From NCBI GenBank assembly GCA_016185435.1, contig JACPNN010000005.1, forward strand, positions 22,588-86,587: a stretch of 64,000 nucleotides of DNA, read 5' to 3'. The notes beneath the pieces were generated by a model. That model saw only the letters and a program-made list of their open reading frames with translations, ran no database searches and was not told where the DNA came from. The translations under genes were made by a program, and so were the position numbers. Of the stretch, positions 6,001 to 60,072 are shown one piece after another; position 1 is the stretch's first letter, and the number at the start of each line of letters is the position of its first letter. The stretch comes from Candidatus Aenigmatarchaeota archaeon (GTDB lineage Archaea; Aenigmatarchaeota; Aenigmatarchaeia; QMZP01).

Positions 6001-6718
6001 TTATAATGCTTTCGTCCGACTCAATCACTGTCGTCCCGTCGCCGACATCCAAAGAATATTCTGTTATATTGCCATCAGGATCATAGCTGCCGGAAGTGTC
6101 GAACAGCACAGCTTCGGATTCGGCAGGATTCTGGGGGCTGATAGTGAAGAATGCAACAGGCAGAGCATTAGGCCTCTCGGCAGGCTGCCACGTGCCGGCC
6201 AAGCAGGTGAAGTTGCCTGTAGAGTTTGCAGCTGTCTCTCCCGGAGCCACGCATGCATTATCTCTCAGACACTCATCGGCATTGCAGCATCTCTTAGAAG
6301 TCGATAGATTAAAATTATTTCTGCAGACAACGCCGGAGCAACACTGATCTGAATCGCAGGTATCGCCTCTTGAAGAGCAAACCGGCTGCGAGACTCTAAC
6401 CACTTTGCCGGTCGAATTCCATCTGCTTGTGTTGTCAGTCAGGTTAAGGACAACGGTATAATTTCCGGCGGCTGAATAGCTGTGGCTCCTCGGGGCGGAA
6501 CTGCCGCTGACATTTGACCCGTCTCCAAAGTTCCATTTGAAGCTGGTTATTATACAGCCGCTGCATCTCGATGCAGCCGGGTCAAAGGTGACATTTGAGC
6601 CTGCCGAAGGATTCAGGGGCGTATAGCTGAATTGCGGCAAAGGGATGGCAAAAGCCAGAGGCGAAGCCAATACAGCAATAGAAAGGGCGAAAATGATGCC
6701 GTATGAAGGTGAGGCCAT
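3002..6718 (-). CDS. giant secreted surface protein: signal peptide, multiple PKD-like domains, Cys-rich CDGxDNDCDG repeats, C-terminal TM anchor
   Basis: N-terminal hydrophobic signal (MASPSYGIIFALSIAVLASPLAFA). Repeated FxYxP...VxFDASxSxDxDGxIxxYxWxFGDG blocks are PKD-like. Many DNDCDG / CxDxDDxCxG repeats. C-terminal hydrophobic stretch ALLLAVAVLIIIVIGGAL. Many N-x-S/T sequons. Confidence 0.8.
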   Translation of the reverse strand: MASPSYGIIFALSIAVLASPLAFAIPLPQFSYTPLNPSAGSNVTFDPAASRCSGCIITSFKWNFGDGSNVSGSSAPRSHSYSAAGNYTVVLNLTDNTSRWNSTGKVVRVSQPVCSSRGDTCDSDQCCSGVVCRNNFNLSTSKRCCNADECLRDNACVAPGETAANSTGNFTCLAGTWQPAERPNALPVAFFTISPQNPAESEAVLFDTSGSYDPDGNITEYSLDVGDGTTVIESDESIITSHAYYTSGTYVAVLTVKDNRNQTSAFSRAIAVQNEPLTAAFSYSPFRPPPWREVFFDASNSRGGISQYEWNYSDGDSDITIEPQAYHIFQSERTYIVRLTVRNGGGNSSSRSRNIRVTSSWPSVHVYFSISPRKALPDRQVTFDATGSYSTKGRITRYEWDFGDGAIISTSKSVVTHQYRSTGEYSVILTVFDSTGDQNSKAGTVRIVSKLNTNPVAKFNYYPERPKARENATFDASESYDSDGEIRGYYWRINGSYYSVSRDPIINIAFRRPNVYNVTLFVIDNEYDYYNDGIGSISKLVTVDASSSLPVANSPPVPIFSISPLGTKVNGYVSFDAGDSEDPDGDEIAYYEWDFGDGETEKTSWPNTYHSYRMVKSYDVVLKVTDEFGASARSSPKTVRVFDARCVDDDGGQNYEVQGSLTGTALKQSYDDSCVDKRYLNEYYCTPDSKNASEIFDCYRLKMICSNGECKKKKTVPVPIFTYFPGLPVADESTFLSADKSYSADEFPITEFKWDFGDGSTGTGSAITHAYKYPGRYNVTLAATDMLESKNWTSAAISVMPKVELNITGKTVTESRIDANFSIAFPKGTANFNISSLSIDFGDDTGIVICDSGESCQQNRINRSIQHRYNLTNKTKVFVAEAVVGISDLTVSTAKATVAACADNDRDGYCDYEDCDDSDPRSRPFALEICDGRDNDCDGRIDEGFDMPGKILGNSCNDWKGSICKGVWACSLDGSGVICRGNVSVGQKKEICANGLDDDCDGKTDETYEYEQADPQRPLLGCFGCNDGDEALLSPAAGGCGARKKVCVGGEWIEKTAYEKKPEVCNGKDDDCNGMVDDIGGARSREEAGCQCFNGGLPSSEVCDGIDNDCNGQIDEAGNCCKEDDVMETGGKNVGICKPSKQICQKGKWVEVSKAVGPQQETCENDVDDNCDGQINEGCPEKQACGNGIKDGNEEGVDCGGSCAPCTALTADSGALLLAVAVLIIIVIGGALQFFGKI

Positions 6719-24274: not shown

Positions 24275-24562
24275 GCCCCAGTAGCTCAGCCGGTGGAGCG
24301 TCACCTTGGTATAAACCCTTTTCTTTTTAAGAAAAAGAAAAGCGAATGGGAGACAGAAGCATATCAGCGGATATGCTTCATAACCAAACGTGGAAAAGAA
24401 AAATAAATGCAAAGGAAGAAGAAAATGATGTAAAACAAAAAGGTGAAGGCCGCGAGTTCAAATCTCCACCCTTTCTTTTGTAAAAGAAAGGGTAGGTTAT
24501 CCAAAGAAAACAGTTACAGAGAGTGAATATAAAATATCCGAGTGAACGTCTCGCCTGGGGCT
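24275..24562 (+). tRNA. tRNA-Thr(GGU) with two introns (24312..24440 at 37/38; 24464..24549 in/after the T-loop)
   Basis: Exons reconstruct a cloverleaf: acceptor gccccag/ctggggc, D-stem gctc/gagc, anticodon stem tcacc/ggtga with loop ttGGTa|a, T-arm gcgag-ttcaaat-ctcgc. All four stems pair perfectly only after removing the two inserts. CCA is not encoded. Confidence 0.6.
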
Positions 24563-36677: not shown

Positions 36678-38018
36678 CTACAGCCTGAAATCGTAAGGAA
36701 CTGTTCCAGAAACCAGCACTTCTGTCAACCTCTTTCTGCCCCCATAGCTTTCTGAAATATTGAGCTGCGAGCATGCTGACAGCTCCCCTATATAGCTCCT
36801 GCATTCCTGCTTTGTTATCCCGGCCTCTTCAACCCACTTCGGGTACACGAAAAGACTGTACCCCCTGCTGTTTTCCGGATACCTGCCCCTCACCTCTTCA
36901 GCCATTTCAGCTCCCCCCATCTTCCGCAGCAGCCACCCCACCTCCGTCCTGAAACGGTTTTCAAGGCCGCCCCTCCTCGCTCCATACCCTCTGGATGCCA
37001 TCTTTTCAAGAGATGCCGCAATCCCATTGGCCTTCCTTGGACTGGAGCTGTATGATGCCGATTTTCCAAGGAAAAGCATGCTTTTTGCGGCCTTATGGGC
37101 ATCAGGCACTTTGCCCGAATCCCTCTGTCTGCCCATCCAGCTGCCGAGATATAAGGGAAAAAGGCTGAACATTACTGATATTTTTCTGCCATTGTATTCG
37201 CTGGTTTCCAGTTCCGACAAGGGAAAATGTTCCTTGATGCGCCTCCTCTGCAGCATGTCCAATCGGCTGCCTTTAGCGCTCTTATATTCCACTTTCGTGA
37301 CAGCAGCCGGAAATCTGCCGAGGGAAAACATTTCCAGGAATCCCTCCCATCCGTTTCCAGCACTGAAGTGGAGATGCGGAGTGCCATGTTGTAGACCGGC
37401 AAATCCGTGCCTGTCAAAGAGCCCCTGGAAATACGCCGGCTCTTTGCCATTTTCAGGAACGAAAGCTATCCTATAACTCCCGCTCCCCTGCCTTTCAGCC
37501 AGCCCTTTCTTATCCAGCGCCTTGAGGAATGCCTGCTTTATCCCGCCCACAGGCGTGGCAAGCAGGCTGTTGGTACCAGGTGTAAGCTGCGTCCTGCACA
37601 TTCTTTCGTGCCGGGGCAGGATGCCTGCCAGCTGCACAAGCTGGGGATATATGTATGCTGTGAAGATATCATCGCCGTTTTTCATCCACCTGTGCCCCCT
37701 GACACAATAGAAGCTCCTGCTGGCGCTTTCTCCTAGGAGATACATTCTCCCTGGAGTTATTTCAATATCCTCAGGCCTGTACAGATCTGGCTCCCTCTCG
37801 CCACTGGCCCACCTTGATATTGTCGAATAATCAATTCCAGTGAGTTTCCTGACTTTATCATGGCTCTCTTTCAGCAATGCCCGGAAGAACGGCTCGAAAA
37901 ATGCAAACCTTCTGTTCTCCCTCAAGAACAGTTCCATGCCCAGGGATTTCTGGGCGTTCTCTCTTTCCTTCGGATTCAGCCAGTCTATATCCTCATACAG
38001 ATGCCTTTCAGATGCCAT
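36678..38018 (-). CDS. hypothetical protein (446 aa) with an HTH-like segment
   Basis: LTGIDYSTISRWASGE resembles the HTH of some transposase/regulator families. No catalytic motif recognised. Confidence 0.45.
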   Translation of the reverse strand: MASERHLYEDIDWLNPKERENAQKSLGMELFLRENRRFAFFEPFFRALLKESHDKVRKLTGIDYSTISRWASGEREPDLYRPEDIEITPGRMYLLGESASRSFYCVRGHRWMKNGDDIFTAYIYPQLVQLAGILPRHERMCRTQLTPGTNSLLATPVGGIKQAFLKALDKKGLAERQGSGSYRIAFVPENGKEPAYFQGLFDRHGFAGLQHGTPHLHFSAGNGWEGFLEMFSLGRFPAAVTKVEYKSAKGSRLDMLQRRRIKEHFPLSELETSEYNGRKISVMFSLFPLYLGSWMGRQRDSGKVPDAHKAAKSMLFLGKSASYSSSPRKANGIAASLEKMASRGYGARRGGLENRFRTEVGWLLRKMGGAEMAEEVRGRYPENSRGYSLFVYPKWVEEAGITKQECRSYIGELSACSQLNISESYGGRKRLTEVLVSGTVPYDFRL

Positions 38019-39038: not shown

Positions 39039-39091
39039 AAATACATATCATGTTCAGTGTATTAAAAGCCAAACAAATATTGTCTGCTTCC

Positions 39092-39384
39092 TTTCCCCTG
39101 GAACCTCTCAAAAACAGTCGACAAAACCTTTTATTGGTTTTATAAGCCCAAAAGGTTTTATCCAAAAGATGTTTTTTGGGTCGAGCCTTTTGACGCTTAC
39201 GGTTCAAAAAGGGTCGCAAAAAGTTTTATCCAAAAACTGAACCCTTCTACCGTCCTAATCCCTTCTGAAATCTCTGGAATACAGTCGACAAGTCAATCCT
39301 GTACTTGCCTTCGGCAAGCCTTATGACAAGCGGTTTCTGGGCGAACAGCTTGGTGACATCTATATTGTACTTGCCCGGTTTAAG
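39092..39384. repeat. long direct repeat copy 1 (~231 bp shared with 40858..41088, plus a 68-bp internal insert 39168..39235). Includes an orphan 3' gene fragment (C-terminal 46 codons of the Zn-ribbon gene, minus strand 39247..39384)
   Basis: Near-identical alignment with 40858..41088. Copy 1 lacks the rest of the gene. Confidence 0.85.
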
Positions 39385-39484
39385 AGGCATTTGAATAAAT
39401 TGATTCTTCAAGAACATGCTTATGGCATCCGATAGCTTTATAAATATAACCTCAAATTATATTTTGTTAAAGAGGTGATATAAT

Positions 39485-39688
39485 ATGAAGGCTTTCTCAA
39501 AGGTGAAAACCGTTGGAGGCAGTCTCATGGTAAGGATACCCATGGAGCTTGCAAGAGAGGAAGGAATAACTTCTGGCCAGACTGTCGAGATAGATGTGAA
39601 GAAAATGAGGAAAAGCTACTTCGGCATTCTCAGGGGCATAGGAAGTTTCACAGAAGAAGATGAAAAAACAATGGATACGCATGACTAG
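39485..39688 (+). CDS. vapB: AbrB/SpoVT-type antitoxin (VapB)
   Basis: VKTVGGSLMVRIPMELAREEGITSGQTVEIDV is a swapped-hairpin AbrB/MazE fold. Confidence 0.65.
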   Translation: MKAFSKVKTVGGSLMVRIPMELAREEGITSGQTVEIDVKKMRKSYFGILRGIGSFTEEDEKTMDTHD

Positions 39689-40061
39689 ATATATAATTGA
39701 TGCATACGCTTGGATAGCTTACTTGGAGGGGGGCAACCCAAAAGCCAAGGACATAATAGAGACTAGGGAAAACGAACTTGTAACTCCGATTCTAGTCTAT
39801 GCTGAAGTTATAAGCAAAGTGCAGAGAAAGGGAATGGACTACAGAATTGCTTCTGAAGCCATACTCAGCAATTCAACAATCGCATATATTAATGTCGAAC
39901 TTGCTTCCAAGGCTGCCCTTTTCCATGCAGAAACAAGGCAGAAAGTCAGGGATTTTTCCTTGCCTGATGCATTCGTTCTTGCAACGGCCAGAGAACTCAA
40001 TGGCAGAATATTAACAGGCGATATGCATTTCAAGGACTTTAAAGAGGCTGTGATGATATAG
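39660..40061 (+). CDS. vapC: PIN-domain toxin VapC
   Basis: YIIDAYAWIAYLEG N-terminal PIN motif; overlaps the antitoxin. Confidence 0.75.
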   Translation: MKKQWIRMTRYIIDAYAWIAYLEGGNPKAKDIIETRENELVTPILVYAEVISKVQRKGMDYRIASEAILSNSTIAYINVELASKAALFHAETRQKVRDFSLPDAFVLATARELNGRILTGDMHFKDFKEAVMI

Positions 40062-40079
40062 GCTGATTTATGTGTTCTT

Positions 40080-40499
40080 TCATTTGGCTCTCTGGCTGAG
40101 ACTTCCAATGATATCATTAAATATTTTCTGTCCGACAGTGCCAATGAAGATCCAAATAGCAGATGTAATTGATCCCTCAATGAGCATAGCTATATAGCCT
40201 GAAGCATCGGCGACTAATGCAAAAAGACGTGCAACAAAGAAGACCAAGAGCTCCCAACTGATGGTATTTGCCACGGTTAGAGGATACAACACAGAAAGCA
40301 TGGCATCAATTATCGGATTGCAAGGAACAACATCTGGACAGCTTGCACCATAACCAAGGCTGTAAAAGAACATTCCATATGAAATAGTGCTGTAAAGAAA
40401 GCCAGCTATAGCATCAAATTTATTTTCTTTTAAGAAGCCGATAACAGTTTTCGTAAGCAATGGCATTTTATCCGTAGTAGGTGCAAGTAATTTTCCCAT
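40080..40499 (-). CDS. small membrane protein
   Basis: Three hydrophobic helices. Confidence 0.4.
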   Translation of the reverse strand: MGKLLAPTTDKMPLLTKTVIGFLKENKFDAIAGFLYSTISYGMFFYSLGYGASCPDVVPCNPIIDAMLSVLYPLTVANTISWELLVFFVARLFALVADASGYIAMLIEGSITSAIWIFIGTVGQKIFNDIIGSLSQRAK

Positions 40500-40773
40500 C
40501 TGGCAACGTAGCTTTCTTTATGATTTTGGTTACATTTTCAAGATTAACCCCGAATTTATCTGCAACGCTAACAACATCATTATCAAAGCGCCTTCGTTCA
40601 AGATAAGCCCTGCAATCATCAAAGCTGGTTAAATCATCTGTGCATGAGTCGCAATCAAGAGAGATAAACCTCTGAACCCTAAGGGGAAATTTAGAGCCGC
40701 TAAAGACAACAATAATGGCTACAGATAATAGGGCAGCAATTACCAGGAGCAGAAACATATAGTTTTTTTTCAT
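40468..40773 (-). CDS. small secreted Cys-containing protein
   Basis: Signal peptide MKKNYMFLLLVIAALLSVAIIVVF. Confidence 0.4.
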   Translation of the reverse strand: MKKNYMFLLLVIAALLSVAIIVVFSGSKFPLRVQRFISLDCDSCTDDLTSFDDCRAYLERRRFDNDVVSVADKFGVNLENVTKIIKKATLPDGKITCTYYG

Positions 40774-40857
40774 GATTTATTGTTGTTTGGCCAAGCATAA
40801 AAGTATATAAGAACCAAAAGAATCAGCTTTATTTAGCATAACAGTCTCTGAACCTTA

Positions 40858-41088
40858 TTTCCCCTTCCTCCGGAACCTCTCAAACACAGTCGACAAAACC
40901 TTTTATTGGTTTTATAAGCCCAAAAGGTTTTATCCAAAAACTGAGCCCTTCTACCGTCCTAATCCCTTCTGAAATCTCTGGAATACAGTCGACAGATCAA
41001 TCCTGTACTTGCCTTCGGCAAGCCTTATGACAAGCGGTTTCTGGGCGAACAGCTTGGTGACATCTATATTGTACTTGCCCGGTTTAAG
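40858..41088. repeat. long direct repeat copy 2 (overlaps the 3' end of the Zn-ribbon gene)
   Basis: See 39092..39384. Confidence 0.85.
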
Positions 41089-41355
41089 GACCCTGATGGC
41101 CTCGAGGTCCAGTATCACTGTTTCCTGGCCGGCCTCACTTTCCTCAGGCTCCTCCTCCTCCACTATCTCCCTTATGTCCTTCTCGATCGTTTCAATCTCC
41201 TGCTTGTTCAGCTTGAGCCTCTCCTGTTCCACAATCTCGATAAGGTCCTGCCTGACAAAGAAGAAGAACTTGCTGCCACATGAATCGCAGCCGTTAAGCA
41301 GATAAGGCGCATCATCAGGGTGTATCTTGCCGCACTTCGCGCATGTGTTGGGCAT
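40951..41355 (-). CDS. Zn-ribbon protein
   Basis: CAKCGK...CDSCGSK double CxxC. Confidence 0.5.
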   Translation of the reverse strand: MPNTCAKCGKIHPDDAPYLLNGCDSCGSKFFFFVRQDLIEIVEQERLKLNKQEIETIEKDIREIVEEEEPEESEAGQETVILDLEAIRVLKPGKYNIDVTKLFAQKPLVIRLAEGKYRIDLSTVFQRFQKGLGR

Positions 41356-41409: not shown

Positions 41410-41745
41410 CTAAACCTTCCTTTTTATCCCGATTTCCCCTTCACCCAAGAGCTCTATTTCCACTTTCTGACCTTCTTTGAAACCGATGCCTGCAGCTTCC
41501 TGCGGCAGTGTGACACCTATTGAATTGCCTATTCTCAATATCTTCCTGGTTGTTTTGATTTTCCTGGCCTCTTCCCTCAGCCTGAGCAGTTCTTTCGCTG
41601 TATCTAAAGGAAGCCCTGTATCTCCGCATTTTTCGCACACATTGGCGTTGATAAGGAAGCCCTCGATGAAAGCCTTCTGCACGTTGATTGTCCCTCCGCA
41701 CCTGCAGATGAGGCCTTTCCTCCTCAGATTTTTCATGTTTTCCAT
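41410..41745 (-). CDS. Zn-ribbon + AbrB/SpoVT-like domain protein (putative antitoxin/regulator)
   Basis: CRCGG...CEKCGD then ILRIGNSIGVTLPQEAAGIGFKEGQKVEIEL (swapped-hairpin). Confidence 0.5.
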   Translation of the reverse strand: MENMKNLRRKGLICRCGGTINVQKAFIEGFLINANVCEKCGDTGLPLDTAKELLRLREEARKIKTTRKILRIGNSIGVTLPQEAAGIGFKEGQKVEIELLGEGEIGIKRKV

Positions 41746-41746
41746 A

Positions 41747-42034
41747 TTATATCCTCCCTTCTTCCTTGATGATTGTAACTATTCTGATGAAATTTGGATG
41801 GAGACCGGCTATGACAGTGTATGTGGCGTTCTCCTTGCCGTAATAGAGCCTGAAGCATACATTCTGCCTTTTCTCATCGGATTTTTCAGGCACAGGCCTG
41901 CCCCTTCTTATGGTTTCCTCAGCCATGTCAATGTCAGCCGGTGTCAGGTTTTTATGCTTCAAGGCATGCAGACTGATGTCGATATACACTGTCTGCCTGT
42001 CATACCTCTGCAAGGCCTCCGGTATCCAATCCAT
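41747..42034 (-). CDS. small hypothetical protein, possible toxin partner
   Basis: Immediately upstream of and co-directional with the AbrB-like gene (1-nt gap). Confidence 0.35.
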   Translation of the reverse strand: MDWIPEALQRYDRQTVYIDISLHALKHKNLTPADIDMAEETIRRGRPVPEKSDEKRQNVCFRLYYGKENATYTVIAGLHPNFIRIVTIIKEEGRI

Positions 42035-42106
42035 TCCAATAATAATTGTGTTATAACAATATAAAGCTTTTGTTATAACAAAATCAGCACAAAAGAAGGA
42101 TAAAAA

Positions 42107-43603
42107 TCAGCTTTCAGGCACAGGGTCCACTATCCACCAGAGCTCGTTGCCCAGCCTTGCGCCATAGGCTATTTTTCTGTCGTCTGAACTGAAGACAGGA
42201 TCTCCAATCCAATCATATGGTCTGCCCTCATTGTGGCCGACGACAACTAGCCATTTATCTTCTTTTTTGGCTTTATATGCAACAATTCTGTCATCATGAC
42301 TGAAAATAGGATAACTCACTTCATCATATGGTTTGCTTTCTTTGTTTCCAATCACTACGAATTGCTTTCTCCCCTGTTTTACACTGTAAGCTATTGTATC
42401 TCCATCATGACTGTACACAGGAAAAGATACCTCATCATATATTCCTTCATACTGTTTACCCTCTATACCATCAAAGACTATAAACATTTTTCCTGCTCTC
42501 CCTGCTTTATAAGCAAGTTTCTGACCTTTTGGGCCAAACTCAAAATCCCATATAAGATCATATGGTTCACTTTCTTTGCTCTCAACTACTATTATCGAAC
42601 TGCCGTTCTTGCTAGCTGCATAAGCCACTTTTTTGCTGTCAGCACTGAAGACAGGATCTGATACCCAATCATATCGTTTCTCTTCTTTTTCTCCTATGAC
42701 TACAAATCCTGCTTCTTCTTCCCTAAAATTGTTTTGCCTTTGACGAACCATATAGGCAACATGACGGCTGTCCGGGCTGAAGACAGGCCATGATACAGAA
42801 TCATAGGGTTTGCCTTCTTTTCCTTCAACGACAATGAACCCCTTCTCCCCTTCTGCAGCCTGATAAGCAATTTTTTTGCCGTCTGGGCTGAATACTGGGT
42901 TTACAACCCAACGATAATTCTTGCCTTCCTTCCCCCCAACGACTACAAACTGATTGCCTCCTTTGCTTGCCACAAAGGCCAGTTTGTTGTCCTTGCTGGA
43001 AACAACTTGTGACACATAATCATATAAGTTTCCCTCATTTTCCTCTGTTACAACACGCCACTTACCTCCCTCCTCTGCGATATAAGCCATTTTTTGTCCA
43101 TCTGAGATGAATAGGCGATAGAAGGGGGCCACTATGAAATCATATGGCTTCCCTTCTTTGGATCCCGTAATCACAAATGACTTATTGCCTCTAAAAGCTC
43201 TATATACTATTTGCCCGGCCGGGCTGAATACCAAACTGTCTACCATATTGTAAATGTTGCCTTCCCTATTCCCTACAACAACAAACCATTCCCCGCTCTT
43301 ATTCACACTATAAGCTACCTCCCTACCATCAGGGCTAAAAACAAGTTTGGTTAAGTTATATCCATAGGGAATAGTAGCCAGCTTCGTTGTCTTCAGATTA
43401 AGATCCAATATCAGCTGTTGTCGGTTTTCTGGATTTGCAGCACTCTCCGGAGATGCAGCTTGGTCGTCTGAGCCTTGGTCTCCAGAAGACCTGAATTCAG
43501 AGGGAATTATATAGCTTCCTGCAACCAAAACCGCTATCAATAAAATAACTGCTAGTACACTTTTGCTTTCCATTTTGACTATTTGTCCGCTTCTGCTAAT
43601 CAA
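42107..43603 (-). CDS. secreted PD40/TolB-like beta-propeller repeat protein
   Basis: Signal-anchor, then >8 repeats of FSPDG(K/R)xIAY (PD40 motif). Confidence 0.8.
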   Translation of the reverse strand: MISRSGQIVKMESKSVLAVILLIAVLVAGSYIIPSEFRSSGDQGSDDQAASPESAANPENRQQLILDLNLKTTKLATIPYGYNLTKLVFSPDGREVAYSVNKSGEWFVVVGNREGNIYNMVDSLVFSPAGQIVYRAFRGNKSFVITGSKEGKPYDFIVAPFYRLFISDGQKMAYIAEEGGKWRVVTEENEGNLYDYVSQVVSSKDNKLAFVASKGGNQFVVVGGKEGKNYRWVVNPVFSPDGKKIAYQAAEGEKGFIVVEGKEGKPYDSVSWPVFSPDSRHVAYMVRQRQNNFREEEAGFVVIGEKEEKRYDWVSDPVFSADSKKVAYAASKNGSSIIVVESKESEPYDLIWDFEFGPKGQKLAYKAGRAGKMFIVFDGIEGKQYEGIYDEVSFPVYSHDGDTIAYSVKQGRKQFVVIGNKESKPYDEVSYPIFSHDDRIVAYKAKKEDKWLVVVGHNEGRPYDWIGDPVFSSDDRKIAYGARLGNELWWIVDPVPES

Positions 43604-43962
43604 GCGCTCATCTCCAAAAACAACGCCTTCGGCTGCCTCTTTATCCTCTTGATGAGCTTGGCCGGGCCAATCACTGTCATGCCCCTTTTCCTGCCCACCA
43701 CGGTCTCGACAACCCTGTTCCTTATCCTGGCCAGTATGCCAGCCTCCTCTGCCGGAGTGAACTCCATGCTGCCCAGCTCTATGCCCTTGAACTTGTCTGA
43801 AATCTTTTTCATGGTTTCCTCTATCAGCTCTGTCTCCTGCTCTGCAGAAAGCTTGGCGTCTATCATGATTATCGTGTCCTTCTCTATCTCATCCAATATA
43901 TGCTCCACCTTCTTCTCTTCCACCTTCTCGTAAGGGATGAATTTTATCCTGAGCTTTGTCAT
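43600..43962 (-). CDS. small conserved archaeal protein (GTPase-associated; DUF2073-like guess)
   Basis: Translationally coupled (overlap) with the upstream GTPase gene. Confidence 0.4.
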   Translation of the reverse strand: MTKLRIKFIPYEKVEEKKVEHILDEIEKDTIIMIDAKLSAEQETELIEETMKKISDKFKGIELGSMEFTPAEEAGILARIRNRVVETVVGRKRGMTVIGPAKLIKRIKRQPKALFLEMSA

Positions 43963-43984
43963 ATTCTGCCTCCATCAGATCCTT

Positions 43985-44629
43985 TCATTTTTTGACCTCC
44001 AGCATGGTCTTGTACAGTTCCTTCATATTGTAGCCTGTCTTGGCCGAGACCCCTATTACAGGATACTGGGGGAAGGCCGATCTGATCCTGTAGGCCTTGG
44101 AGCTCTTGACATCCAGCTTGTTGGCCACTATGATGACGGGCTTGCCCCTCGCCTCGAGATTGCCCAGTATGGTGACATTCACCTGGTCCACGGGCTCCTT
44201 TGTCGAGTCCATGATGACAAGAACAAGGTCCATCTTGTCCAGCCACTTTATGGCCTCTATCACGCCCTTTGTCGCTTCTTTCGCCCTTTTCCTTGCGGCC
44301 TGCTTGCTCATGCCGAACTTCAGGAAATCCTCAAAATCAATCTTGGTGGCTATGCCTGGGGTGTCGATCAGGTTGAAAACGAGCTTCTTCCCGTCCTGCT
44401 TCATCTCCACATGCTCCTTCATCTGTATTTCTCTGGTCTCATGGGGTATGGCAGAAACCTTCCCCAGCTCCTCCCCAAGCCAGTCCAGGCAGATGGTATT
44501 GGCAAGCGTTGTCTTGCCCGCATTGACAGGGCCGTACACACCTATCTTCATCAGTTTCCTCTTGCCGAAGAATGAGCCAATGATATCCGCCAGCCTGCCA
44601 TGGAGCCTCTGAAGATGCCTTAGAACCAT
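43985..44629 (-). CDS. small GTP-binding protein
   Basis: G1 GPVNAGKTT, G3 DTPG, G4 NKLD. Confidence 0.75.
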   Translation of the reverse strand: MVLRHLQRLHGRLADIIGSFFGKRKLMKIGVYGPVNAGKTTLANTICLDWLGEELGKVSAIPHETREIQMKEHVEMKQDGKKLVFNLIDTPGIATKIDFEDFLKFGMSKQAARKRAKEATKGVIEAIKWLDKMDLVLVIMDSTKEPVDQVNVTILGNLEARGKPVIIVANKLDVKSSKAYRIRSAFPQYPVIGVSAKTGYNMKELYKTMLEVKK

Positions 44630-44685: not shown

Positions 44686-44900
44686 GGGGTCATGAGGTTA
44701 ATGGCAACCTGGCGGGCTCCAGGCCAGCCTTTCTTTCTCGAAAGAAAGGCTAGGTTACCCAAAGAAAGGAAATACAGATGTTATGCTCGGGAGCATTGAG
44801 CCGACGAGGGAGCTGCCATATGCGGCGAGCATGATGACAGATACCCAAGGCTGTGAAAGGAAGACACCCGTACATGGGAGTTCGAATCTCCCTGACCCCA
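44686..44900 (+). tRNA. tRNA-Trp(CCA) with a 143-nt intron at 37/38 (44723..44865)
   Basis: Acceptor ggggtca/tgacccc, D-stem aggt/acct, anticodon stem gcggg/cccgt with loop ctCCAg|a, T-arm gggag-ttcgaat-ctccc. The intron contains the palindrome cctttctttctcgaaagaaagg and an ATGATGA (box C-like) motif. Confidence 0.65.
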
Positions 44901-45048
44901 TTGCGCACCCCTTTCTTTTAGAAAAAGAAAGGGTACCGCCCTATCCAAAGAAAACCAATTACCTCCACTGAACTTGACATTTCCTGCTCGATATCGGTAA
45001 TTCCTTTTTCTGGATAACCTACCCTCTTTTTTGGAAAAAGAGGGTGGT

Positions 45049-45082
45049 GTACATGGGAGTTCGAATCTCCCTGACCCCATTC
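45049..45082 (+). pseudogene. orphan duplicate of the tRNA-Trp 3' half (34 nt identical to 44870..44903), preceded by an intron-type palindrome
   Basis: gtacatgggagttcgaatctccctgaccccatt repeated. A third partial copy (tctccccattgcgca) lies at 45146..45158. Confidence 0.7.
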
Positions 45083-45573
45083 CCAGAAGGGAGGTATCCC
45101 TTCTATGGTTTACTTCCCTCTGAATACTAATATCAATCTTGATCTCCCCATTGCGCATTCCCTACGCAGAGGGAAGGTATTCCCTCTACCGTCCTACTCC
45201 CTTCAGATTACAAGTATCGCCACCTGTAATCCCTTTCTTTGCCGAACGGGCTTTCTTTTGGAAAGAAAGCCTGTAAAGGTCTACCGCTCTACCCCCAAAA
45301 GAAAAGGCAATACTAATCAGAGAGGTGTAGTATAGGCTTTTCTTCCAGAGAAAAGCCAATTGGAGACAGAAGCATATCAGTGGATATGCTTCATAACCAA
45401 ACGGGCAAAAGAAGGATATACCAATGATAAGCATATCCTTCAGTTGCTGGGGGCTGATAACACTTGGCCAGCCTGTGACAGTGAAGTAAAGACTTCAAAA
45501 AAGTTGGCTGACCAAGTGAAGGGCCCGCAGAGGCCCTTATTGGGATACCTCCCCTCTAGGGAAAGAAAGGCAG

Positions 45574-48117: not shown

Positions 48118-49002
48118 CTATAGCCCCACAGGCCTCTTGCTCTTTATTATCCCGATGAAAATGAACTGGAAGAGGATAAGGAAGCCAATGACCATCATCA
48201 GCACGAACTGGATGTTTATGACATTGCCAACAAAGCCCGTCATTATGAGAAGAAAGACTATGCCAAGGGTGGGGAAAATGACCACAAGCAGCATGTACAT
48301 CAGGGCCAGCGGGTTGAGCTGGCTGCCGTACTTCTTTATCTCAGCCTTCTGGTCAACTATGATGCTGTCGACTATTTCATTCAAGGTCACGCCGATGTCA
48401 GACCCTGTCTTCAGCGCATTAAGCAGCTGCCACATCACGCGCCTGAAGTAGAGGGAGGGATTGGATCTGGTAAGCCTTTCCAGGGCCTCAATCTCTGACA
48501 TGCCTGTGTTTATCTGCTTTACAGCCTTCCTGAACTCGGCCGACAGCACGCCATAGTCGGCCATGGATATGGAGACCATGGAGTTGTAGAGAGGCATGCC
48601 GCCCCTTACCTGTATCAGCAGATGCCTCATCGCATAAGGCAGGTTATCCTCCAGGGCCTTCACCTTCCTTGCAACAAGCAGCTTCGGATAGAATAGTATG
48701 TATAAGGAGGCAAGAAGACCAGCAAATATACCTGTGCCAAGGGCGACAAGTATGGCCCTTATGACCTCAACCTTTGCTATCAGGGAGACCAGAAATACGC
48801 CTCCTGCGGCCATAGTAAAGAGGTTGGTGAACGCCAATATGGCAAAAGCCACCCATTCCTTTGCCGAAGAAGCGAATTCTGCCTGCTGCAGCTTCATCTC
48901 AAGCTCAGGGAAGAACCTGCTGACTGTCTCCGCTGCCGGCAGGTAATGCCTTGAGACTTTTTTCATCCTCTCCGACATCGCAAAAGGTTTCGCAGGCATC
49001 AC
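48118..49002 (-). CDS. type IV pilus assembly membrane protein (TadB/FlaJ-like half)
   Basis: T2SSF-like domain; adjacent to the TadC-like gene (split FlaJ arrangement). Confidence 0.7.
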   Translation of the reverse strand: MMPAKPFAMSERMKKVSRHYLPAAETVSRFFPELEMKLQQAEFASSAKEWVAFAILAFTNLFTMAAGGVFLVSLIAKVEVIRAILVALGTGIFAGLLASLYILFYPKLLVARKVKALEDNLPYAMRHLLIQVRGGMPLYNSMVSISMADYGVLSAEFRKAVKQINTGMSEIEALERLTRSNPSLYFRRVMWQLLNALKTGSDIGVTLNEIVDSIIVDQKAEIKKYGSQLNPLALMYMLLVVIFPTLGIVFLLIMTGFVGNVINIQFVLMMVIGFLILFQFIFIGIIKSKRPVGL

Positions 49003-49153
49003 TTGATAATGGTTTTTCTGGGTTAAAAATGGAAAATGAGCTCGCTTCCTTGGTAATGATCCATTTTAGTGATCACAGCAGCAGCCGACTATGGAGAAAA
49101 TCGGGCTTTGCTTGGACACAAAATGGAACCTTCGGTTTTATGAGGAATAAATA

Positions 49154-49567
49154 TCAGCCATCTATGACATTTATCCCCTCTGTCTTCCTGAAAGCAGTGT
49201 CAAAGGTTGCTATGGTTTTAATTCCGAACTTCTCAACAAAGATCCTGCTTGTGCAGTCGGTGAATGACATCCTCTCCTTGTTGCCCTTCCGGAAGAGCTC
49301 CCATGCCGCATAGAGAACGGCATTATTTACAACGGCTATTTGCACTGAATCCATTATATATTGACCCATCCTGACAGCATGGTCAAGGCTCTTTGTTCTG
49401 ACGAGCATGACTGTCACGGCCTCGTCAAAAATATAGTCTGAAGTCATTGGCTTTCCATAGTTTCCAGATGCAATATCAGAAATAATCTTTTTCGCCTTCC
49501 CATGGTTCTGGTCTGCCTCGTTGTAAAAGGAGACAAATACGCTGGTATCGATAAAGATTGTCATCAT
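49154..49567 (-). CDS. vapC: PIN-domain toxin VapC
   Basis: IFIDTSVFVSFYNEAD PIN N-terminus. Confidence 0.75.
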   Translation of the reverse strand: MMTIFIDTSVFVSFYNEADQNHGKAKKIISDIASGNYGKPMTSDYIFDEAVTVMLVRTKSLDHAVRMGQYIMDSVQIAVVNNAVLYAAWELFRKGNKERMSFTDCTSRIFVEKFGIKTIATFDTAFRKTEGINVIDG

Positions 49568-49794
49568 CTCATCCCGTAAAGCGTTTTATCAATCTCCTCG
49601 CTCAGTTTTTCGCTTCCCTTGCCCAGATTGACAGACCTGAAATCCAGCATGTTTCTGATGGGTTTCGCGTGCTCTTGGAGCCAGAAGCCCATGGCAAGGG
49701 TAATAGCCTTGCCGACAGGCAGGCCTTCCCTGGTGGCCTCTGCCTTGAATTCCCTAAATGTCTTTTCGTCCACATCCCTGATGCTGAGCTGCAT
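49564..49794 (-). CDS. vapB: RHH-type antitoxin VapB
   Basis: MQLSIRDVDEKTFREFKAEA (RHH strand-helix). Overlaps the vapC start. Palindrome ATGTAATAC-TT-GTATTACAT immediately upstream (49796..49818). Confidence 0.6.
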   Translation of the reverse strand: MQLSIRDVDEKTFREFKAEATREGLPVGKAITLAMGFWLQEHAKPIRNMLDFRSVNLGKGSEKLSEEIDKTLYGMR

Positions 49795-50545
49795 ATGTAA
49801 TACTTGTATTACATGTATATAAAGGTTATTTCTGTCATATATCGAGCTAAGAGAATTGGCTGCTTCGCTTCAAGCTTTTCAAGCTTCTCTGTATCCCTGG
49901 CCAGCTGCTCGAACAACCACCTGTTGCTCTCGACAAGCTGCAGCCATCTTTGCCTTGTGCCCATATTTGATATGCGCAATCGCTGGCGAGAACGTTAAGT
50001 TTAAATTTCTTACTGTTGTAATTCACTTATGACGAAAAAACTTTCCATAGAATTAGATATACAGGGACACATAGAAGTAGACAAAAGAGCGGATCCCCTT
50101 GAACGTGGTCCAAATTATTTTAGACCAACCATTTTAAGGGAAGATCTGCCTCCTGAAGCAGTTAGAGCTTGGGTTAATTCTTATATGGGTGGTCTAATAA
50201 ACGAGGTAGTACAGAAGAGCGGATATACAGGACCCGCTAACCTAATCATTACTATAAAATATCAATCAGAATAGTTCGCCAGCGACTTTCTCCTCGCTTG
50301 TGCCCGTCGAATCCTTCTGTGATATAAATGAAGGGCACATAACAGCCGCTAAACGGCTCATTTCGATTCGCCCAAAGTTTCGCAAAGCGAAACCTTCGCT
50401 TAGCGGCATACGATAGATGGTATCCTCATTTCTTTTTTTCAGGGATGCTGCGCCTTTATAGTCATCACATGATATTGGTTTTTTGTGCTAAAAAAGAAGA
50501 GGAATCAGGAAACAATTGAACAGGATTGATGAAAAGAGCATGAAC

Positions 50546-51268
50546 CTATATCTCAATCACCTTCAGCCCTTCTGGGGTGACGTCAAACGGATGTATCATT
50601 GTCGAATGCTTCGTCCTCCTCATCTTCCTTACTGTCAAAGTCCTTTTGTATTCCTCGGCAACAGGCACGAAATCAAGCTTGATGACAGTGTCGACAATGA
50701 ATTCGATAATCCCCCCGCCTGAAAGGCTCTCGCTGGCCTCAGGAATGGTCCCCGTAAGCAGGGATGTGACACCCAGATGCCTCAGCTTTTCCGTAAGGGC
50801 TGTCAGGGCAACCCTGCTGACATACTCGTCCTTTATGAACATCTCTATTATCGATACCGAATCGACCACAACCCTTTCGGCCTTCACTTCCTCAATGGCC
50901 TTCTCTATTTTCGACATCAGATCGTATATGTAGAGCCTCACGAGCCTGTTCAGGTCTTCCACATCCTTGGACGGGAAAAGGGGCTTTATCGAGAAAATCT
51001 TGACTATGCCCGACTTCTCAAGGCCCTCAAAATCCCAGTCAAACATGGCCACTATATCCTTCTTTATTTCCTCCGCGCCCTCCTCAGTCGTGATATACAC
51101 TCCAGGCTGGTTCTCCCTTGTCCCCTGATAGAGGAATGTTGAGCAAAAACTGGTCTTGCCAGTCCCTGTCTTGCCCGTGACGAGGTTGATGCTTCCTTTG
51201 ACAAATCCGCCCTCCATCTTCTCGTCCAATCCTATCACTCCTGTCGATATCCTCTCAACATGCCCCAT
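50546..51268 (-). CDS. KaiC/RadA-like RecA-superfamily ATPase
   Basis: GLDEKMEGGFVKGSINLVTGKTGTGKTSF (Walker A in a KaiC-like context). Confidence 0.75.
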   Translation of the reverse strand: MGHVERISTGVIGLDEKMEGGFVKGSINLVTGKTGTGKTSFCSTFLYQGTRENQPGVYITTEEGAEEIKKDIVAMFDWDFEGLEKSGIVKIFSIKPLFPSKDVEDLNRLVRLYIYDLMSKIEKAIEEVKAERVVVDSVSIIEMFIKDEYVSRVALTALTEKLRHLGVTSLLTGTIPEASESLSGGGIIEFIVDTVIKLDFVPVAEEYKRTLTVRKMRRTKHSTMIHPFDVTPEGLKVIEI

Positions 51269-55263: not shown

Positions 55264-55421
55264 CAGGCCCGACGGGATTTTCGTCTTGGGTATTTTCCAG
55301 ATAGATGTTTGTATTTCCTTTTTCTGGATACCCTACCCTCTTTTTTGGAAAAAGAGGGTGGTGTCGAACCCGTATCCCCTGCTCCGGAGGCAGGTGTTCT
55401 ATCCGACTGAACTACGGGCCT
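55264..55421 (-). tRNA. tRNA-Arg(CCG) with an 86-nt T-loop intron (55279..55364)
   Basis: On the minus strand: acceptor aggcccg/cgggcct, D gttc/gaac, anticodon stem cctgc/gcagg with loop ctCCGga, T-stem acggg/cccgt, and T-loop ttcga|at restored only after excising the insert. The insert begins caccaccctctttttccaaaaaagagggtagggtatccagaaaaagg. Confidence 0.5.
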
Positions 55422-55473: not shown

Positions 55474-55762
55474 GCGGGGGTTCCCGAGAGGCCAAAGGGG
55501 CGGGACTTAAGAAAACCTTTTCTTTTCCAAAAAGAAAAGGTTTTATCCAAAAGAAAACAAATGAAAAACAAGCGCTTGCGGAAAAGAAAACAACATACAG
55601 AAATCTTAAGTATTGAGCGAAAGCTGTGAAATAAGAGATCCCGTGACTTAGTGTCTTCGCAGGTTCGATAGGCTTTCTTTTCAGAAAAGAAAGCCCATAC
55701 GGCAAAGAAAACATAATACAAAAACTGAAACAATAACCAGAACGAAAATCCTGCCTCCCGCA
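55474..55762 (+). tRNA. tRNA-Leu(UAA) with two introns (55512..55637 at 37/38; 55669..55747 in the T-loop)
   Basis: Acceptor gcggggg/ctcccgc (one G-U), D ccc/ggg with long D-loop, anticodon stem cggga/tcccg with loop ctTAAg|a, long variable arm (tgacttagtgtcttc), T-arm gcagg-ttcga|at-cctgc. Confidence 0.6.
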
Positions 55763-59456: not shown

Positions 59457-59495
59457 TTAAGCCTTTAAAAGCCAGCACATATTAATCTTATCCAT

Positions 59496-59512
59496 GGCCT
59501 CGTTGGTGTAAT
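59496..59512 (+). pseudogene. orphan duplicate of the first 17 nt of tRNA-His, fused to an intron-type palindrome module
   Basis: ggcctcgttggtgtaat is identical to 59617..59633, followed directly by ccgccctctttttccaaaaaagagggcaggttgcccagaaaaagg. Confidence 0.6.
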
Positions 59513-59616
59513 CCGCCCTCTTTTTCCAAAAAAGAGGGCAGGTTGCCCAGAAAAAGGAATTACATGTACTAAACATGCAATTTCAACTAATACGAGACCT
59601 GAACAATAAGGCATAT

Positions 59617-60072
59617 GGCCTCGTTGGTGTAATGGAAGCACAGAAGCCTGTGGGCCACCCTCTTTTTCCAAAAAAGAGGGTAGGATATCCAGAAAAAGGC
59701 AATGCAGATGTCGTAAGTAATAACAAATTACGGCATGGCTGCTGGGGGTTAATAAGGGCTGCTCATCATGAGTGATGGCATGCCTTCGCAAGAGCGAAGC
59801 GCACCGCTGGAGGCCCCTTTCGTATAAGCTCAGCAGGAAGCAAGGGGTACTATGGGGATGCGCAGCCTTTGGCTGGCATGCCTTCGCTTCAGCGAAGTGC
59901 ACAGCATGTCCCCATGCAGAAAGCTTCTAGCCTGGGTTCAAATATAGGCTTTTCTTTTGAAAAGAAAAGCCCATTCGGCAAAAGAAACATAATACATCTG
60001 TTGAATGGGTCGATAGCCCATTCGGCAAAGAAAACAGATACCGGATGTATATTGAAAATCCCAGACGAGGCC
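59617..60072 (+). tRNA. tRNA-His(GUG) with two introns (59654..59921 at 37/38, ~268 nt; 59944..60059 in/after the T-loop)
   Basis: G-1 paired to C73 (His identity element). Acceptor gcctcgt/acgaggc, D gtgt/gcac, anticodon stem gaagc/gcttc with loop ctGTGg|a, T-arm ctggg-ttcaa|at-cccag. All stems are perfect only after removing both inserts. Confidence 0.55.

What the first reader, a model, noticed from the sequence alone, without database searches (positions are those of the whole stretch)
39092..41088. 1.5-kb cassette (vapBC plus two small membrane/secreted genes) bounded by ~231-bp direct repeats that duplicate a gene 3' end
39092-39384 and 40858-41088 are near-identical. The repeat includes the last 46 codons of the Zn-ribbon gene (40951-41355), so copy 1 is an orphan gene tail. 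Copy 1 also carries a 68-bp insertion flanked by a 12-bp duplication (ttttatccaaaa). The repeats share a 30-nt core (cccttctaccgtcctaatcccttctgaaatc) whose close variant also sits in the tRNA-Trp fragment region (45182-45210). This hints at a common recombination site used by integrating elements.
Basis: seen in the sequence. Interest (0 to 1): 0.6.

Follow-up and report, generated by a model that had tools for sequence, protein, structure and literature searches.

The report
Toxin-antitoxin cassette flanked by duplicated gene tail
In a DPANN (Aenigmarchaeota) archaeal genome, a foreign 1.5-kb block carrying a VapBC toxin-antitoxin pair sits just after the vesicle-operon gene oapC/arvC, flanked by two copies of that gene's last 227 bases; I found no integrase and no shared integration site, so it is a fairly ordinary repeat-flanked insertion.

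Summary
Bases 39090-39384 and 40862-41088 are direct repeats, 96.9% identical over 227 aligned bases, plus a 68-bp indel. They flank a low-GC 1,477-bp cassette: vapB, vapC and two orphan membrane genes.

The "Zn-ribbon gene" is OapC/ArvC. Copy 2 completes it. Copy 1 is an orphan tail of 45 codons plus the stop.

Relatives L008 and L091 have one tail and no cassette, with a thioredoxin-like gene in that slot.

The integrating-element reading is weak:
- No recombinase domain was found among about 55 ORFs scanned in the window.
- The cassette has no terminal inverted repeats.
- The repeat is 3-10 times longer than known archaeal att sites.
- The "30-nt core" is only the stop-codon region of oapC. 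It is absent from JGI metagenome and IMG/VR contigs.
- Its third copy is a 52-nt patch of the ancestral tail-hairpin junction.
- The "68-bp insertion" is ancestral, so copy 2 lost it.

The same architecture recurs independently in L091, where a 55-nt oapB tail duplication flanks a nucleotidyltransferase cassette.

Best reading: insertion through a circular intermediate that carried its own gene tail, with homology-driven crossover, then retention by toxin-antitoxin addiction. A decayed integrase element and template switching remain live rivals. Interest is modest.

The parts
39090..39384 (.). Direct repeat copy 1 (R1, 295 bp). It is the orphan copy lying between the cassette and the SPP gene.
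39247..39384 (-). Orphan oapC tail of 45 codons plus stop. It encodes the same protein sequence as the true tail. An in-frame ATG lies 2 codons upstream, at 39388-39390.
   Evidence: OapC C-terminus, E=1.6e-5
39124..39235 (+). Structured two-unit hairpin element (hpB), which includes the '68-bp insertion'. It is homologous to L091 3639-3748 (81% over 113 nt). It shares a 20-nt exact stretch (39150-39169 = 55535-55554) with the 5' module of the tRNA-Leu intron, and by inspection also the 10-nt opposite stem arm AAAACCTTTT.
39385..40861 (.). Inserted cassette of 1,477 bp, GC 0.392. Only 1.6% of equally long windows are this low. It has no terminal inverted repeats.
39485..39688 (+). vapB antitoxin (AbrB/MazE fold).
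   Evidence: PF04014, 6.9e-9
39681..40061 (+). vapC PIN-domain toxin. It overlaps vapB by 8 nt. The acidic residues D6, E41, D93 and D111 are present.
   Evidence: (PF01850, 8e-14)
40080..40499 (-). 139-aa predicted membrane protein. It is an orphan: the only match among 5.8 billion proteins is itself.
40468..40773 (-). 101-aa protein with an N-terminal hydrophobic segment and no family match.
40862..41088 (.). Direct repeat copy 2 (R2, 227 bp). It is continuous with oapC and has the one-unit form of hpB.
40951..41355 (-). oapC/arvC, the Zn-ribbon 'origin-associated protein C', intact.
   Evidence: PF09845, 4.3e-23; PMC10927574
40852..40894 (-). Decayed older duplicate of the oapC tail ('tail b'), lying downstream of the hairpin. 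It is shared with L008 and is single-copy in L091.
41410..43603 (-). Separate insertion splitting oapB from oapC: a PD40-repeat protein, a weak DUF4258 hit and an AbrB/Zn-ribbon protein. No flanking duplication.
43600..44629 (-). oapB (43600-43962) and the oapA/arvA GTPase (43985-44629).
44686..44900 (+). tRNA-Trp(CCA). Exons are 44686-44722 and 44866-44900, with a 143-nt intron at the canonical position.
45049..45157 (+). Extra copies of the tRNA-Trp 3' part. 45049-45081 is an exact 33-nt copy; 45135-45157 is degenerate.
   Evidence: (D10, D16)
45156..45207 (-). Third copy of the 'core'. It is a 52-nt patch comprising the last ~6 codons of oapC, the stop, the L008-type hairpin and the start of tail b.
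   Evidence: (D8)

Best explanation
A horizontally acquired 1.5-kb block was added immediately 3' of oapC/arvC by a duplicative insertion through a circular intermediate. The block carries vapBC and two orphan membrane-protein genes.

The incoming DNA carried its own copy of the last ~227 bp of the oapC region. A single (Campbell-type) crossover within that homology placed the block between two copies of the tail. The gene-proximal copy keeps oapC intact, and the distal copy is an orphan.

I think the crossover was driven by homology (RadA-type recombination), not by a dedicated integrase acting on a short core. A 227-bp direct repeat at 97% identity should readily delete what lies between it. 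Persistence of the block is best explained by VapBC addiction, where cells that lose it are poisoned.

Shown: the repeats, the intact gene, the orphan tail, the foreign composition, absence from relatives, and no recombinase domain among the ORFs scanned.

Inferred: the circular intermediate, the homology-driven crossover, and stabilisation by the toxin-antitoxin pair.
For: - The repeats abut the insert on both sides, and relatives L008 and L091 have a single tail.
- Cassette GC is 0.392 against 0.472 for the window, in the lowest 1.6% of equally long windows.
- The 139-aa gene has no homologue other than itself. The nearest VapC is 66% identical, and the only homologue whose context I read (61% identical) lies in an unrelated locus.
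- No integrase, transposase or Cas1 domain was found among about 55 ORFs scanned. There are no terminal inverted repeats.
- At 227 bp the repeat is far longer than archaeal att sites, which span 8-69 bp (PMC6563490).
- End points differ between events. An independent case in L091 duplicates 55 nt of the oapB tail around a ~1.0-kb HTH-nucleotidyltransferase plus 139-aa cassette, and its orphan copy has a frameshift and a premature stop.
- Both coding differences between the two copies are synonymous at sites that also vary among relatives. Four of the 7 mismatches fall in the outer 24 nt (P=0.003). This suggests the two copies have partly separate histories.
- Both repeat-flanked cassettes carry toxin-antitoxin-type gene pairs. 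That fits survival by addiction.
Against: - No circular form and no true empty site (oapC-R-SPP) has been seen.
- The donor would have to be a close relative that already had the cassette next to oapC, so the first arrival of the cassette still needs another event.
- Only 64 kb of the genome was searched for recombinases.
- Seven mismatches are too few to phase donor and recipient parts.
- Nearby small duplications with filler (57 nt + 15 nt; 33 nt + 146 nt) are too small for circles and point to a replication-based process.
Confidence: 0.4

Rival explanations
1. The cassette is a decayed integrase-borne element, analogous to E. coli e14 in icd. A larger integrative plasmid or virus carrying a replacement oapC tail in its attP integrated site-specifically into the 3' end of oapC. 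Later deletions removed the integrase and left only the addictive vapBC and two small genes. It might still be mobilisable in trans.
For: - Direct repeats that duplicate a gene's 3' end, with an intact gene and an orphan tail, are the classic outcome of such integration. Examples are e14 flanked by icd and the icdC fragment (PMC13626634), and 14 of 68 thaumarchaeal elements integrated in the 3'-distal parts of protein genes, including a Zn-finger gene (PMC6563490).
- Toxin-antitoxin pairs are typical survivors of decayed elements.
- The cassette is compositionally foreign.
Against: - No integrase domain was found in the cassette or among the other ORFs scanned in the 64 kb.
- The repeat is 3-10 times longer than reported archaeal att sites.
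- The core is not found in JGI metagenome contigs, IMG/VR or 90 other loci, apart from the orthologous oapC tail.
- None of 37 relatives duplicates its oapC tail.
- The second case, in L091, also lacks an integrase and uses a different gene and repeat length.
Confidence: 0.25
2. The structure arose as a one-step duplication with captured filler during replication or break repair (template switching, MMBIR-like). A broken or stalled end in the hairpin-rich oapC 3' region copied foreign DNA, then resumed on the chromosome 227 bp behind the break. That would create the flanking duplication directly.
For: - The same locus shows smaller events of this form. A ~57-nt tandem duplication of the oapC tail carries a 15-nt filler that is an inverted copy of the preceding 8 nt; it is present in the window and L008, while L091 is unduplicated.
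- A 52-nt patch of that junction was copied to a site 4 kb away.
- A 33-nt duplication of the tRNA-Trp 3' half flanks 146 nt.
- In L091, a 55-nt duplication flanks 1.0 kb.
- The repeats contain stable hairpins, z = -3.7 to -4.5.
Against: - Copying 1.5 kb of intact foreign genes with their own promoters by template switching is unusual.
- No microhomology is evident at 39384|39385.
- A fresh duplication should start identical, yet 4 of 7 mismatches cluster at one end.
- No direct evidence exists for this pathway in DPANN archaea.
Confidence: 0.2
3. The R-C-R order is an assembly artefact or population mixture. The reads might come from a chromosome with one repeat copy (SPP-R-oapC) plus a separate 1.7-kb R-C circle or a second strain, threaded together by the assembler.
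For: Short-read contigs from seven runs all break at the repeat edges. None spans a whole copy: L001 ends at 40946, L002/L003 at 39143, and L005 covers 39355-40915. The junction between the repeat's right end and the cassette's left end would exist in a circle as well.
Against: - The two copies differ by 7 substitutions and a 68-bp indel. Each left-end variant is linked to its own flank in independent assemblies: the SPP side in L002/L003, the cassette side in L005.
- A 1.7-kb circle without a replication gene should not persist across the six or more samples in which the cassette contig is seen.
- The same architecture in L091, from a different assembly, argues that such structures are real.
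Confidence: 0.08

Closest known systems
E. coli cryptic prophage e14 (and phage 21) integrated in icd, leaving the icdC C-terminal fragment (PMC13626634; the phage 21 detail is from my own knowledge)
   Same: The insert sits in the 3' end of a conserved gene, and the gene stays intact because a second copy of its tail is supplied. An orphan tail lies at the far end, and the copies differ mainly by synonymous changes. Recombination between the tails deletes the insert.
   Different: e14 encodes its integrase and excises site-specifically at a short core. Here no recombinase was found, the insert is only 1.5 kb, and the host is a DPANN archaeon.
[quoted passage not shown]
   Same: The target is the 3' end of a protein gene (one example there is a Zn-finger gene). 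Direct repeats flank the element, and the stop codon can be re-supplied by the insert.
   Different: Those elements are multigene with integrases, and their att sites are 8-69 bp. Here the repeat is 227 bp, no integrase was found, and the end points are not fixed.
Cis-mobilisable elements (CIMEs) of streptococcal integrative conjugative elements (from my own knowledge, not tested)
   Same: A small insert bounded by att-like direct repeats and lacking its own recombination genes.
   Different: CIMEs retain the att sites of a known integrase family present in the same species. No cognate integrase or shared att site is known here.
VapBC type II toxin-antitoxin modules as addictive, horizontally mobile two-gene cassettes
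   Same: A PIN toxin with an upstream overlapping AbrB-type antitoxin. Distribution is patchy: the nearest homologues are 66%, 61% and ~52% identical, and the ~52% ones include named Bathyarchaeia proteins.
   Different: Nothing unusual in the module itself. The point of interest is only its position between long direct repeats.
Campbell-type integration of circular DNA by homologous recombination, and tandem duplications with filler DNA from template switching (textbook mechanisms, from my own knowledge)
   Same: Both give an insert flanked by direct repeats of arbitrary length equal to the shared or re-copied segment.
   Different: Neither has been documented for natural gene-cassette gain in DPANN archaea, and neither could be tested here.

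Membership tests
VapBC type II toxin-antitoxin | PIN-domain toxin | tested here: met
   PF01850, E=8e-14, 52.7 bits against a cutoff of 23.6. The NCBIfam VapC model scores 30.5 bits, below its cutoff of 80.
VapBC type II toxin-antitoxin | Conserved acidic active-site residues of PIN | tested here: met
   By inspection of the translation: D6, E41, D93 and D111 of the 126-aa form. No alignment-based check was done.
VapBC type II toxin-antitoxin | Small DNA-binding antitoxin gene immediately upstream, translationally coupled | tested here: met
   PF04014 MazE/AbrB, 6.9e-9. The vapB stop and vapC start overlap by 8 nt, 39681-39688.
VapBC type II toxin-antitoxin | Toxicity neutralised by the antitoxin | not testable with these tools
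   Needs expression experiments.
Integrase-mediated integrative element (attL/attR) | Tyrosine or serine recombinase encoded in or next to the element | tested here: not met
   No such Pfam, PHROG or NCBIfam hit in the cassette or among the other ~50 ORFs scanned in the window. The rest of the genome was not available.
Integrase-mediated integrative element (attL/attR) | Flanking direct repeats that include part of the target gene | tested here: met
   227/295-bp repeats.
Integrase-mediated integrative element (attL/attR) | att length typical of archaeal elements (8-69 bp) | tested here: not met
   227 bp against the ranges given in PMC6563490.
Integrase-mediated integrative element (attL/attR) | Same core used at other sites or in other genomes | tested here: not met
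   There were 0 matches in JGI metagenome contigs and IMG/VR. Among 92 loci only the orthologous oapC tails match. No tail duplication was found in 37 relatives. The third copy in the window is a 52-nt patch with different end points.
Integrase-mediated integrative element (attL/attR) | Empty site in a close relative | tested here: inconclusive
   L008 and L091 have one tail and no cassette, but the slot holds a thioredoxin-like gene that is absent from the window.
Integrase-mediated integrative element (attL/attR) | Excised circle or restored site in the population | not testable with these tools
   No read data were available, and the Logan contigs break at the repeat edges.
Transposon / IS / MITE / casposon | Terminal inverted repeats and a short target duplication of fixed length | tested here: not met
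   No inverted repeats join the cassette ends. The duplication is 227 bp.
Transposon / IS / MITE / casposon | Transposase or Cas1 | tested here: not met
   None found.
Integron gene cassette | IntI integrase, attI site and hairpin attC at each cassette end | tested here: not met
   No integrase was found. A hairpin element lies in the repeat here, but by inspection the analogous repeat in L091 has none.
Campbell-type (homology-driven) insertion | The repeat equals a segment that is single-copy in relatives, and both copies abut the insert | tested here: met
Campbell-type (homology-driven) insertion | No fixed crossover; independent events have different end points | tested here: met
   227 nt at oapC (window), 55 nt at oapB (L091) and a 52-nt patch.
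Campbell-type (homology-driven) insertion | Circular donor carrying the homologous tail | not testable with these tools
   No donor genome or circle was found. The cassette contig L005 occurs alone in six samples, but only because assemblies break at repeats.
OapC/ArvC (gene whose tail is duplicated) | Match to PF09845 and linkage to the OapA GTPase and OapB | tested here: met
   PF09845 4.3e-23, OapB PF09846 5.2e-18, and a GTPase. The trio is adjacent in most of 38 relatives but is split here by 2.2 kb. A role in vesicle formation is shown only in Haloferax (PMC10927574).

The most novel reading that the evidence does not exclude
In this Aenigmarchaeota clade the arv/oap operon may act as a capture site where toxin-antitoxin or defence-type cassettes are added at the 3' ends of conserved genes. 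The process would duplicate the gene tail and need no element-encoded integrase. It might be promoted by a family of structured hairpin modules that also form the 5' ends of this genome's tRNA introns, that is, DNA-level mobility of intron-derived modules.
Probability: 0.12. Interest if true: 0.7.

Novelty: new member of a known kind. Interest (0 to 1): 0.33.

Why it matters
If the reading is right, this is a clean natural example from a DPANN archaeon, with a second example in a sister genome. It shows a small foreign cassette added next to a conserved gene without damaging it, and then held in place by a toxin-antitoxin pair despite flanking repeats that should delete it. That is useful for understanding how reduced archaeal genomes gain and keep accessory genes, and it warns against reading every repeat-flanked islet as an integrase product. 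It does not change current concepts. The repeats also predict a testable deletion and circle, and a hybrid oapC tail, in the source population.

Tried and rejected
- **Core searches.** The degenerate core gave 0 hits in JGI metagenome contigs and in IMG/VR. The 17-nt hairpin tail gave 44 single hits in IMG/VR, which I regard as chance and did not follow.
- **tRNA detection.** ARAGORN and Rfam on the raw window found no tRNA or RNA family. A permissive Rfam scan of 44.6-45.65 kb gave only weak chance-level hits.
- **Empty site or cassette in other contexts.** Exact-protein look-ups returned only short contigs that stop at the repeat edges. The orphan-tail ORF is not on record.
- **Tail duplication in relatives.** None of 37 relatives showed an oapC-tail duplication. 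A wider self-repeat scan of 667 kb found only the window and L091 cases at gene tails. Repeats in L012 and L021 lie at or near gene 5' ends and were not pursued.
- **Other window-specific insertions.** I tested for flanking duplications around p446 and around the oapB|oapC block. None was found.
- **p446 as a hidden recombinase.** It has no family hit and no solved relative. The single-sequence AlphaFold model was unusable, pLDDT 35. Only 9 homologues exist, two of which resemble LAGLIDADG proteins.
- **Promoter and terminator scan.** The bacterial-type scan was uninformative.
- **Rejected idea.** I considered that 45081-45126 is a fourth oapC-tail copy. Part of it is ancestral tRNA-Trp downstream sequence also present in L091, so I dropped it.
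- **Not completed.** I aligned the hairpin modules but did not build a covariance model of them.
Full report
The repeat finder and a MAFFT alignment show two direct-repeat blocks. Block 39090-39167 matches 40862-40939 (78 nt, 95%), and block 39217-39384 matches 40921-41088 (168 nt, 98%). They are separated in copy 1 by an extra 68 bp bounded by TTTTATCCAAAA. Over 227 aligned positions there are 7 mismatches, 96.9% identity. The 31-nt core occurs twice exactly, and no shuffle of the window gives a single match.

Between the copies lie 1,477 bp carrying four genes:
- vapB (39485-39688, PF04014 6.9e-9);
- vapC (39681-40061, PIN 8e-14), overlapping vapB by 8 nt and retaining the acidic PIN residues by inspection;
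- on the other strand, a 139-aa and a 101-aa protein with hydrophobic segments and no family.

**The gene and the organism.** The "Zn-ribbon gene" 40951-41355(-) is OapC (PF09845, 4.3e-23). OapB (PF09846) and the OapA GTPase lie upstream at 43600-44629. These genes are also called arvA/B/C, and in Haloferax volcanii they are needed for normal extracellular-vesicle production (PMC10927574).

Relatives found through OapC are DPANN archaea (Aenigmatarchaeota, Nanoarchaeota, Woesearchaeota) and Thermoplasmatales. One source names the window's own proteins as Candidatus Aenigmarchaeota, locus prefix HYX24. In most of the 38 relatives the three genes are adjacent. Here oapB and oapC are separated by 2.2 kb of other genes.

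**What the repeat contains.** Copy 2 supplies the last 45 codons, the stop of oapC and 89 nt downstream. Copy 1 is an orphan with the same reading frame intact, and it still scores as the OapC C-terminus.

The downstream part of the repeat is composite.
- First comes a structured hairpin element. On the + strand it folds with z = -3.7 in the window and -4.5 in L091, with three conserved hairpins.
- Then comes a ~40-nt stretch that is a decayed direct copy of the oapC tail itself (0 to 3 of 2,000 shuffles score as well).

**Close relatives.** Three comparators were recovered.
- L008 (2.8 kb; oapC 91% nt) reads oapC, a thioredoxin-like gene, SPP, TenA.
- L091 (11.7 kb; oapC 90% nt) spans from the pilus genes through tRNA-Trp, oapA, oapB, oapC, a thioredoxin-like gene and SPP to TenA.
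- L092 covers SPP and TenA only.

None of them has the vapBC cassette or a second long oapC tail. The thioredoxin-like gene leaves no trace in the window. The slot after oapC has therefore been exchanged wholesale, and no strictly empty site was seen.

L091's oapC ends ...STVFERFSDKRK* with a single tail and no hairpin. The short tail duplication shared by L008 and the window is therefore an older event: about 57 nt repeated, with a 15-nt filler that is an inverted copy of the preceding 8 nt. That event also rewrote the C-terminus of OapC.

**The 68-bp "insertion".** Window 39124-39235, which includes the 68 bp, matches L091 3639-3748 at 81% over 113 nt. L091 has the same internal repeat at a spacing of 68 nt. 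The two-unit form is thus ancestral to this element, and copy 2 most likely lost one unit by deletion between the 12-nt repeats. In L091 the element sits elsewhere, near tRNA-Trp, and in the opposite orientation relative to the operon.

**The "core" and the tRNA-Trp region.** ARAGORN and Rfam see no tRNA in the window. This is because the tRNA genes carry long introns. After manual splicing ARAGORN calls four genes:
- tRNA-Trp(CCA), exons 44686-44722 and 44866-44900;
- tRNA-Tyr;
- tRNA-Arg;
- tRNA-Leu.

Extra copies of the tRNA-Trp 3' part lie at 45049-45081 (exact, 33 nt) and 45135-45157. L091 also has a duplicated fragment, so these partly predate the split.

The core variant at 45182-45207 belongs to a 52-nt match (45156-45207, 90%) to L008's oapC end, stop codon, hairpin and start of the decayed tail. 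It is a copied patch of the ancestral junction, not a shared att core. Its end points differ from those of the 227-bp repeat.

**Tests of the integrating-element idea.**
- No integrase, transposase or Cas1 domain appears in the cassette or among about 55 ORFs scanned across the 64 kb.
- The cassette ends carry no inverted repeats.
- The core is absent from JGI metagenome contigs and IMG/VR. Among 92 fetched loci it occurs only in the orthologous oapC tails.
- None of 37 relatives duplicates its oapC tail.
- Reported archaeal att sites are 8-69 bp (PMC6563490), against 227 bp here.

Some evidence points the other way. Integration into the 3' end of protein genes with a re-supplied tail is a well-known pattern. 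Examples are e14 between icd and icdC (PMC13626634) and 14 of 68 thaumarchaeal elements. Toxin-antitoxin pairs are also typical survivors of decayed elements.

**A second, independent case.** In L091 the last 15 codons, the stop and 6 nt of oapB (5257-5311) recur at 6309-6362 (82-97% identity). The distal copy has a 1-nt deletion and an in-frame TAA. The two copies flank a ~1.0-kb block encoding an HTH-nucleotidyltransferase (PF01909, above its cutoff) and a 139-aa partner. The partner's identity is unverified.

So two related genomes each hold a toxin-antitoxin-type pair between duplicated tails of different arv/oap genes, with different repeat lengths and no integrase. Other window-specific insertions (the oapB|oapC block; p446) have no flanking duplication.

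**Foreign origin and age.**
- Cassette GC is 0.392 against 0.472 for the window. Only 1.6% of equally long windows are as low.
- The 139-aa protein matches only itself among 5.8 billion sequences.
- The closest VapC homologues are 66%, 61% and then ~52% identical; the ~52% ones include named Bathyarchaeia proteins. The 61% homologue lies with its own vapB in an unrelated chromosomal context.
- The two coding differences between the copies are both synonymous, at codons that also vary among L008 and L091.
- Four of the seven mismatches fall in the outermost 24 nt (P=0.003). This fits partly separate histories or later gene conversion.

**Mechanism.** An insert that abuts both copies of a repeat cannot come from a plain tandem duplication. 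It needs one of three routes:
- (a) a circle carrying its own tail copy that crosses over once;
- (b) the same, catalysed by an integrase that has since been lost;
- (c) a one-step duplication with captured filler during replication or repair.

I favour (a), with confidence 0.4. No recombinase was found, the repeat is long, and the end points are variable.

Route (b) gets 0.25 because of the e14 precedent and because I could search only 64 kb.

Route (c) gets 0.2. It is supported by the smaller duplication-plus-filler events at this locus and by the copied 52-nt patch.

An assembly or mixture artefact gets 0.08. Short-read contigs from seven runs all break at the repeat edges, so they cannot distinguish R-C-R from one repeat plus an R-C circle. 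However, each repeat variant is linked to its own flank in independent assemblies.

In all three biological routes, 227 bp of 97% identity should allow deletion of the block by recombination. That both surviving cases carry addiction-type gene pairs fits retention by post-segregational killing. This last step is an inference.

**Verdict.** The structure is real and was correctly described. Its interpretation as a shared recombination site for integrating elements is not borne out. It is a small, lineage-specific, repeat-flanked toxin-antitoxin islet at the 3' end of arvC, a new member of a known kind. It has some added interest because a parallel case exists in a sister genome, and because the repeat embeds a hairpin module related to this genome's unusual tRNA introns.

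Noticed in passing
window 24275-24562, 44686-44900, ~55264-55420 (-), 55474-55762, ~59495-60070: Every tRNA gene I could recognise is interrupted by 1-3 long introns (about 90-170 nt), some in the T-loop, so ARAGORN and Rfam report none in 64 kb. After manual splicing ARAGORN calls Tyr(GTA), Trp(CCA), Arg(CCG) and Leu(TAA). The gene near 59.5-60.07 kb was not resolved.
   Followed up: partly
window 24312-24372, 24462-24522, 44722-44782, 44905-44965, 44992-45052(-), 45218-45278(-), 45331-45391, 55306-55366(-), 55507-55567, 55668-55728, 59509-59569, 59651-59711, 59944-60004; also 39124-39235 and 40895-40939: These introns each begin with a polypyrimidine/polypurine hairpin followed by a conserved tail (TAGGTTATCCARAGAAAAC or CATTCGGCAAAGAAAAC). 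The same module also occurs outside tRNA genes: downstream of tRNA-Trp, and inside the repeat studied here. This suggests a dispersed, possibly mobile, intron-derived element family.
   Followed up: partly
L091 5257-6362: A second repeat-flanked cassette in a related genome. A 55-nt duplication of the oapB 3' end flanks an HTH-nucleotidyltransferase plus a 139-aa gene pair. The distal copy is decaying (1-nt deletion, in-frame TAA).
   Followed up: yes
window 40852-41010; L008 745-900; L091 8180-8240: The C-terminus of OapC was remodelled in the common ancestor of the window and L008 by a ~57-nt tandem duplication, with a 15-nt inverted filler that creates a hairpin and a new stop. L091 keeps the unduplicated end (...STVFERFSDKRK*).
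   Followed up: yes
window 36678-38018 (-): A 446-aa gene is inserted between the convergent SPP and TenA genes and is absent from L008, L091 and L092. Only 9 homologues exist among 1.84 billion representatives. Two distant ones hit LAGLIDADG/homing-endonuclease models, so it may be a free-standing homing-endonuclease-like gene 1 kb from repeat copy 1.
   Followed up: partly
window 41410-43603: The usually contiguous oapB-oapC pair is split by a PD40-repeat secreted protein, a weak DUF4258 (toxin-like) hit and an AbrB/Zn-ribbon (antitoxin-like) gene. L091 has different genes in the same slot. The operon in this clade has three variable slots between conserved genes.
   Followed up: partly
window 44829-44865: The tRNA-Trp intron contains a C-box-like ATGATGA and gives a weak C/D-box snoRNA-like Rfam hit (18 bits, E=0.5). 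This is reminiscent of the box C/D guide known in euryarchaeal tRNA-Trp introns (from my own knowledge).
   Followed up: no
window 44870-45081: An exact 33-nt duplicate of the tRNA-Trp 3' half lies 179 nt downstream of the first. The 146 nt between consists of two hairpin modules in inverted orientation. This could be a further intron or a remnant of an insertion.
   Followed up: no
window 78-1124 (-): A 348-aa ORF with a LAGLIDADG_3 domain (E=7e-6) at the window edge, showing that this genome carries homing-endonuclease-type genes.
   Followed up: no
window 49002-50546: About 1.5 kb between the pilus membrane genes and a KaiC-like ATPase has no ORF of 150 aa or more. It may be a disrupted gene (for example a secretion ATPase).
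   Followed up: no
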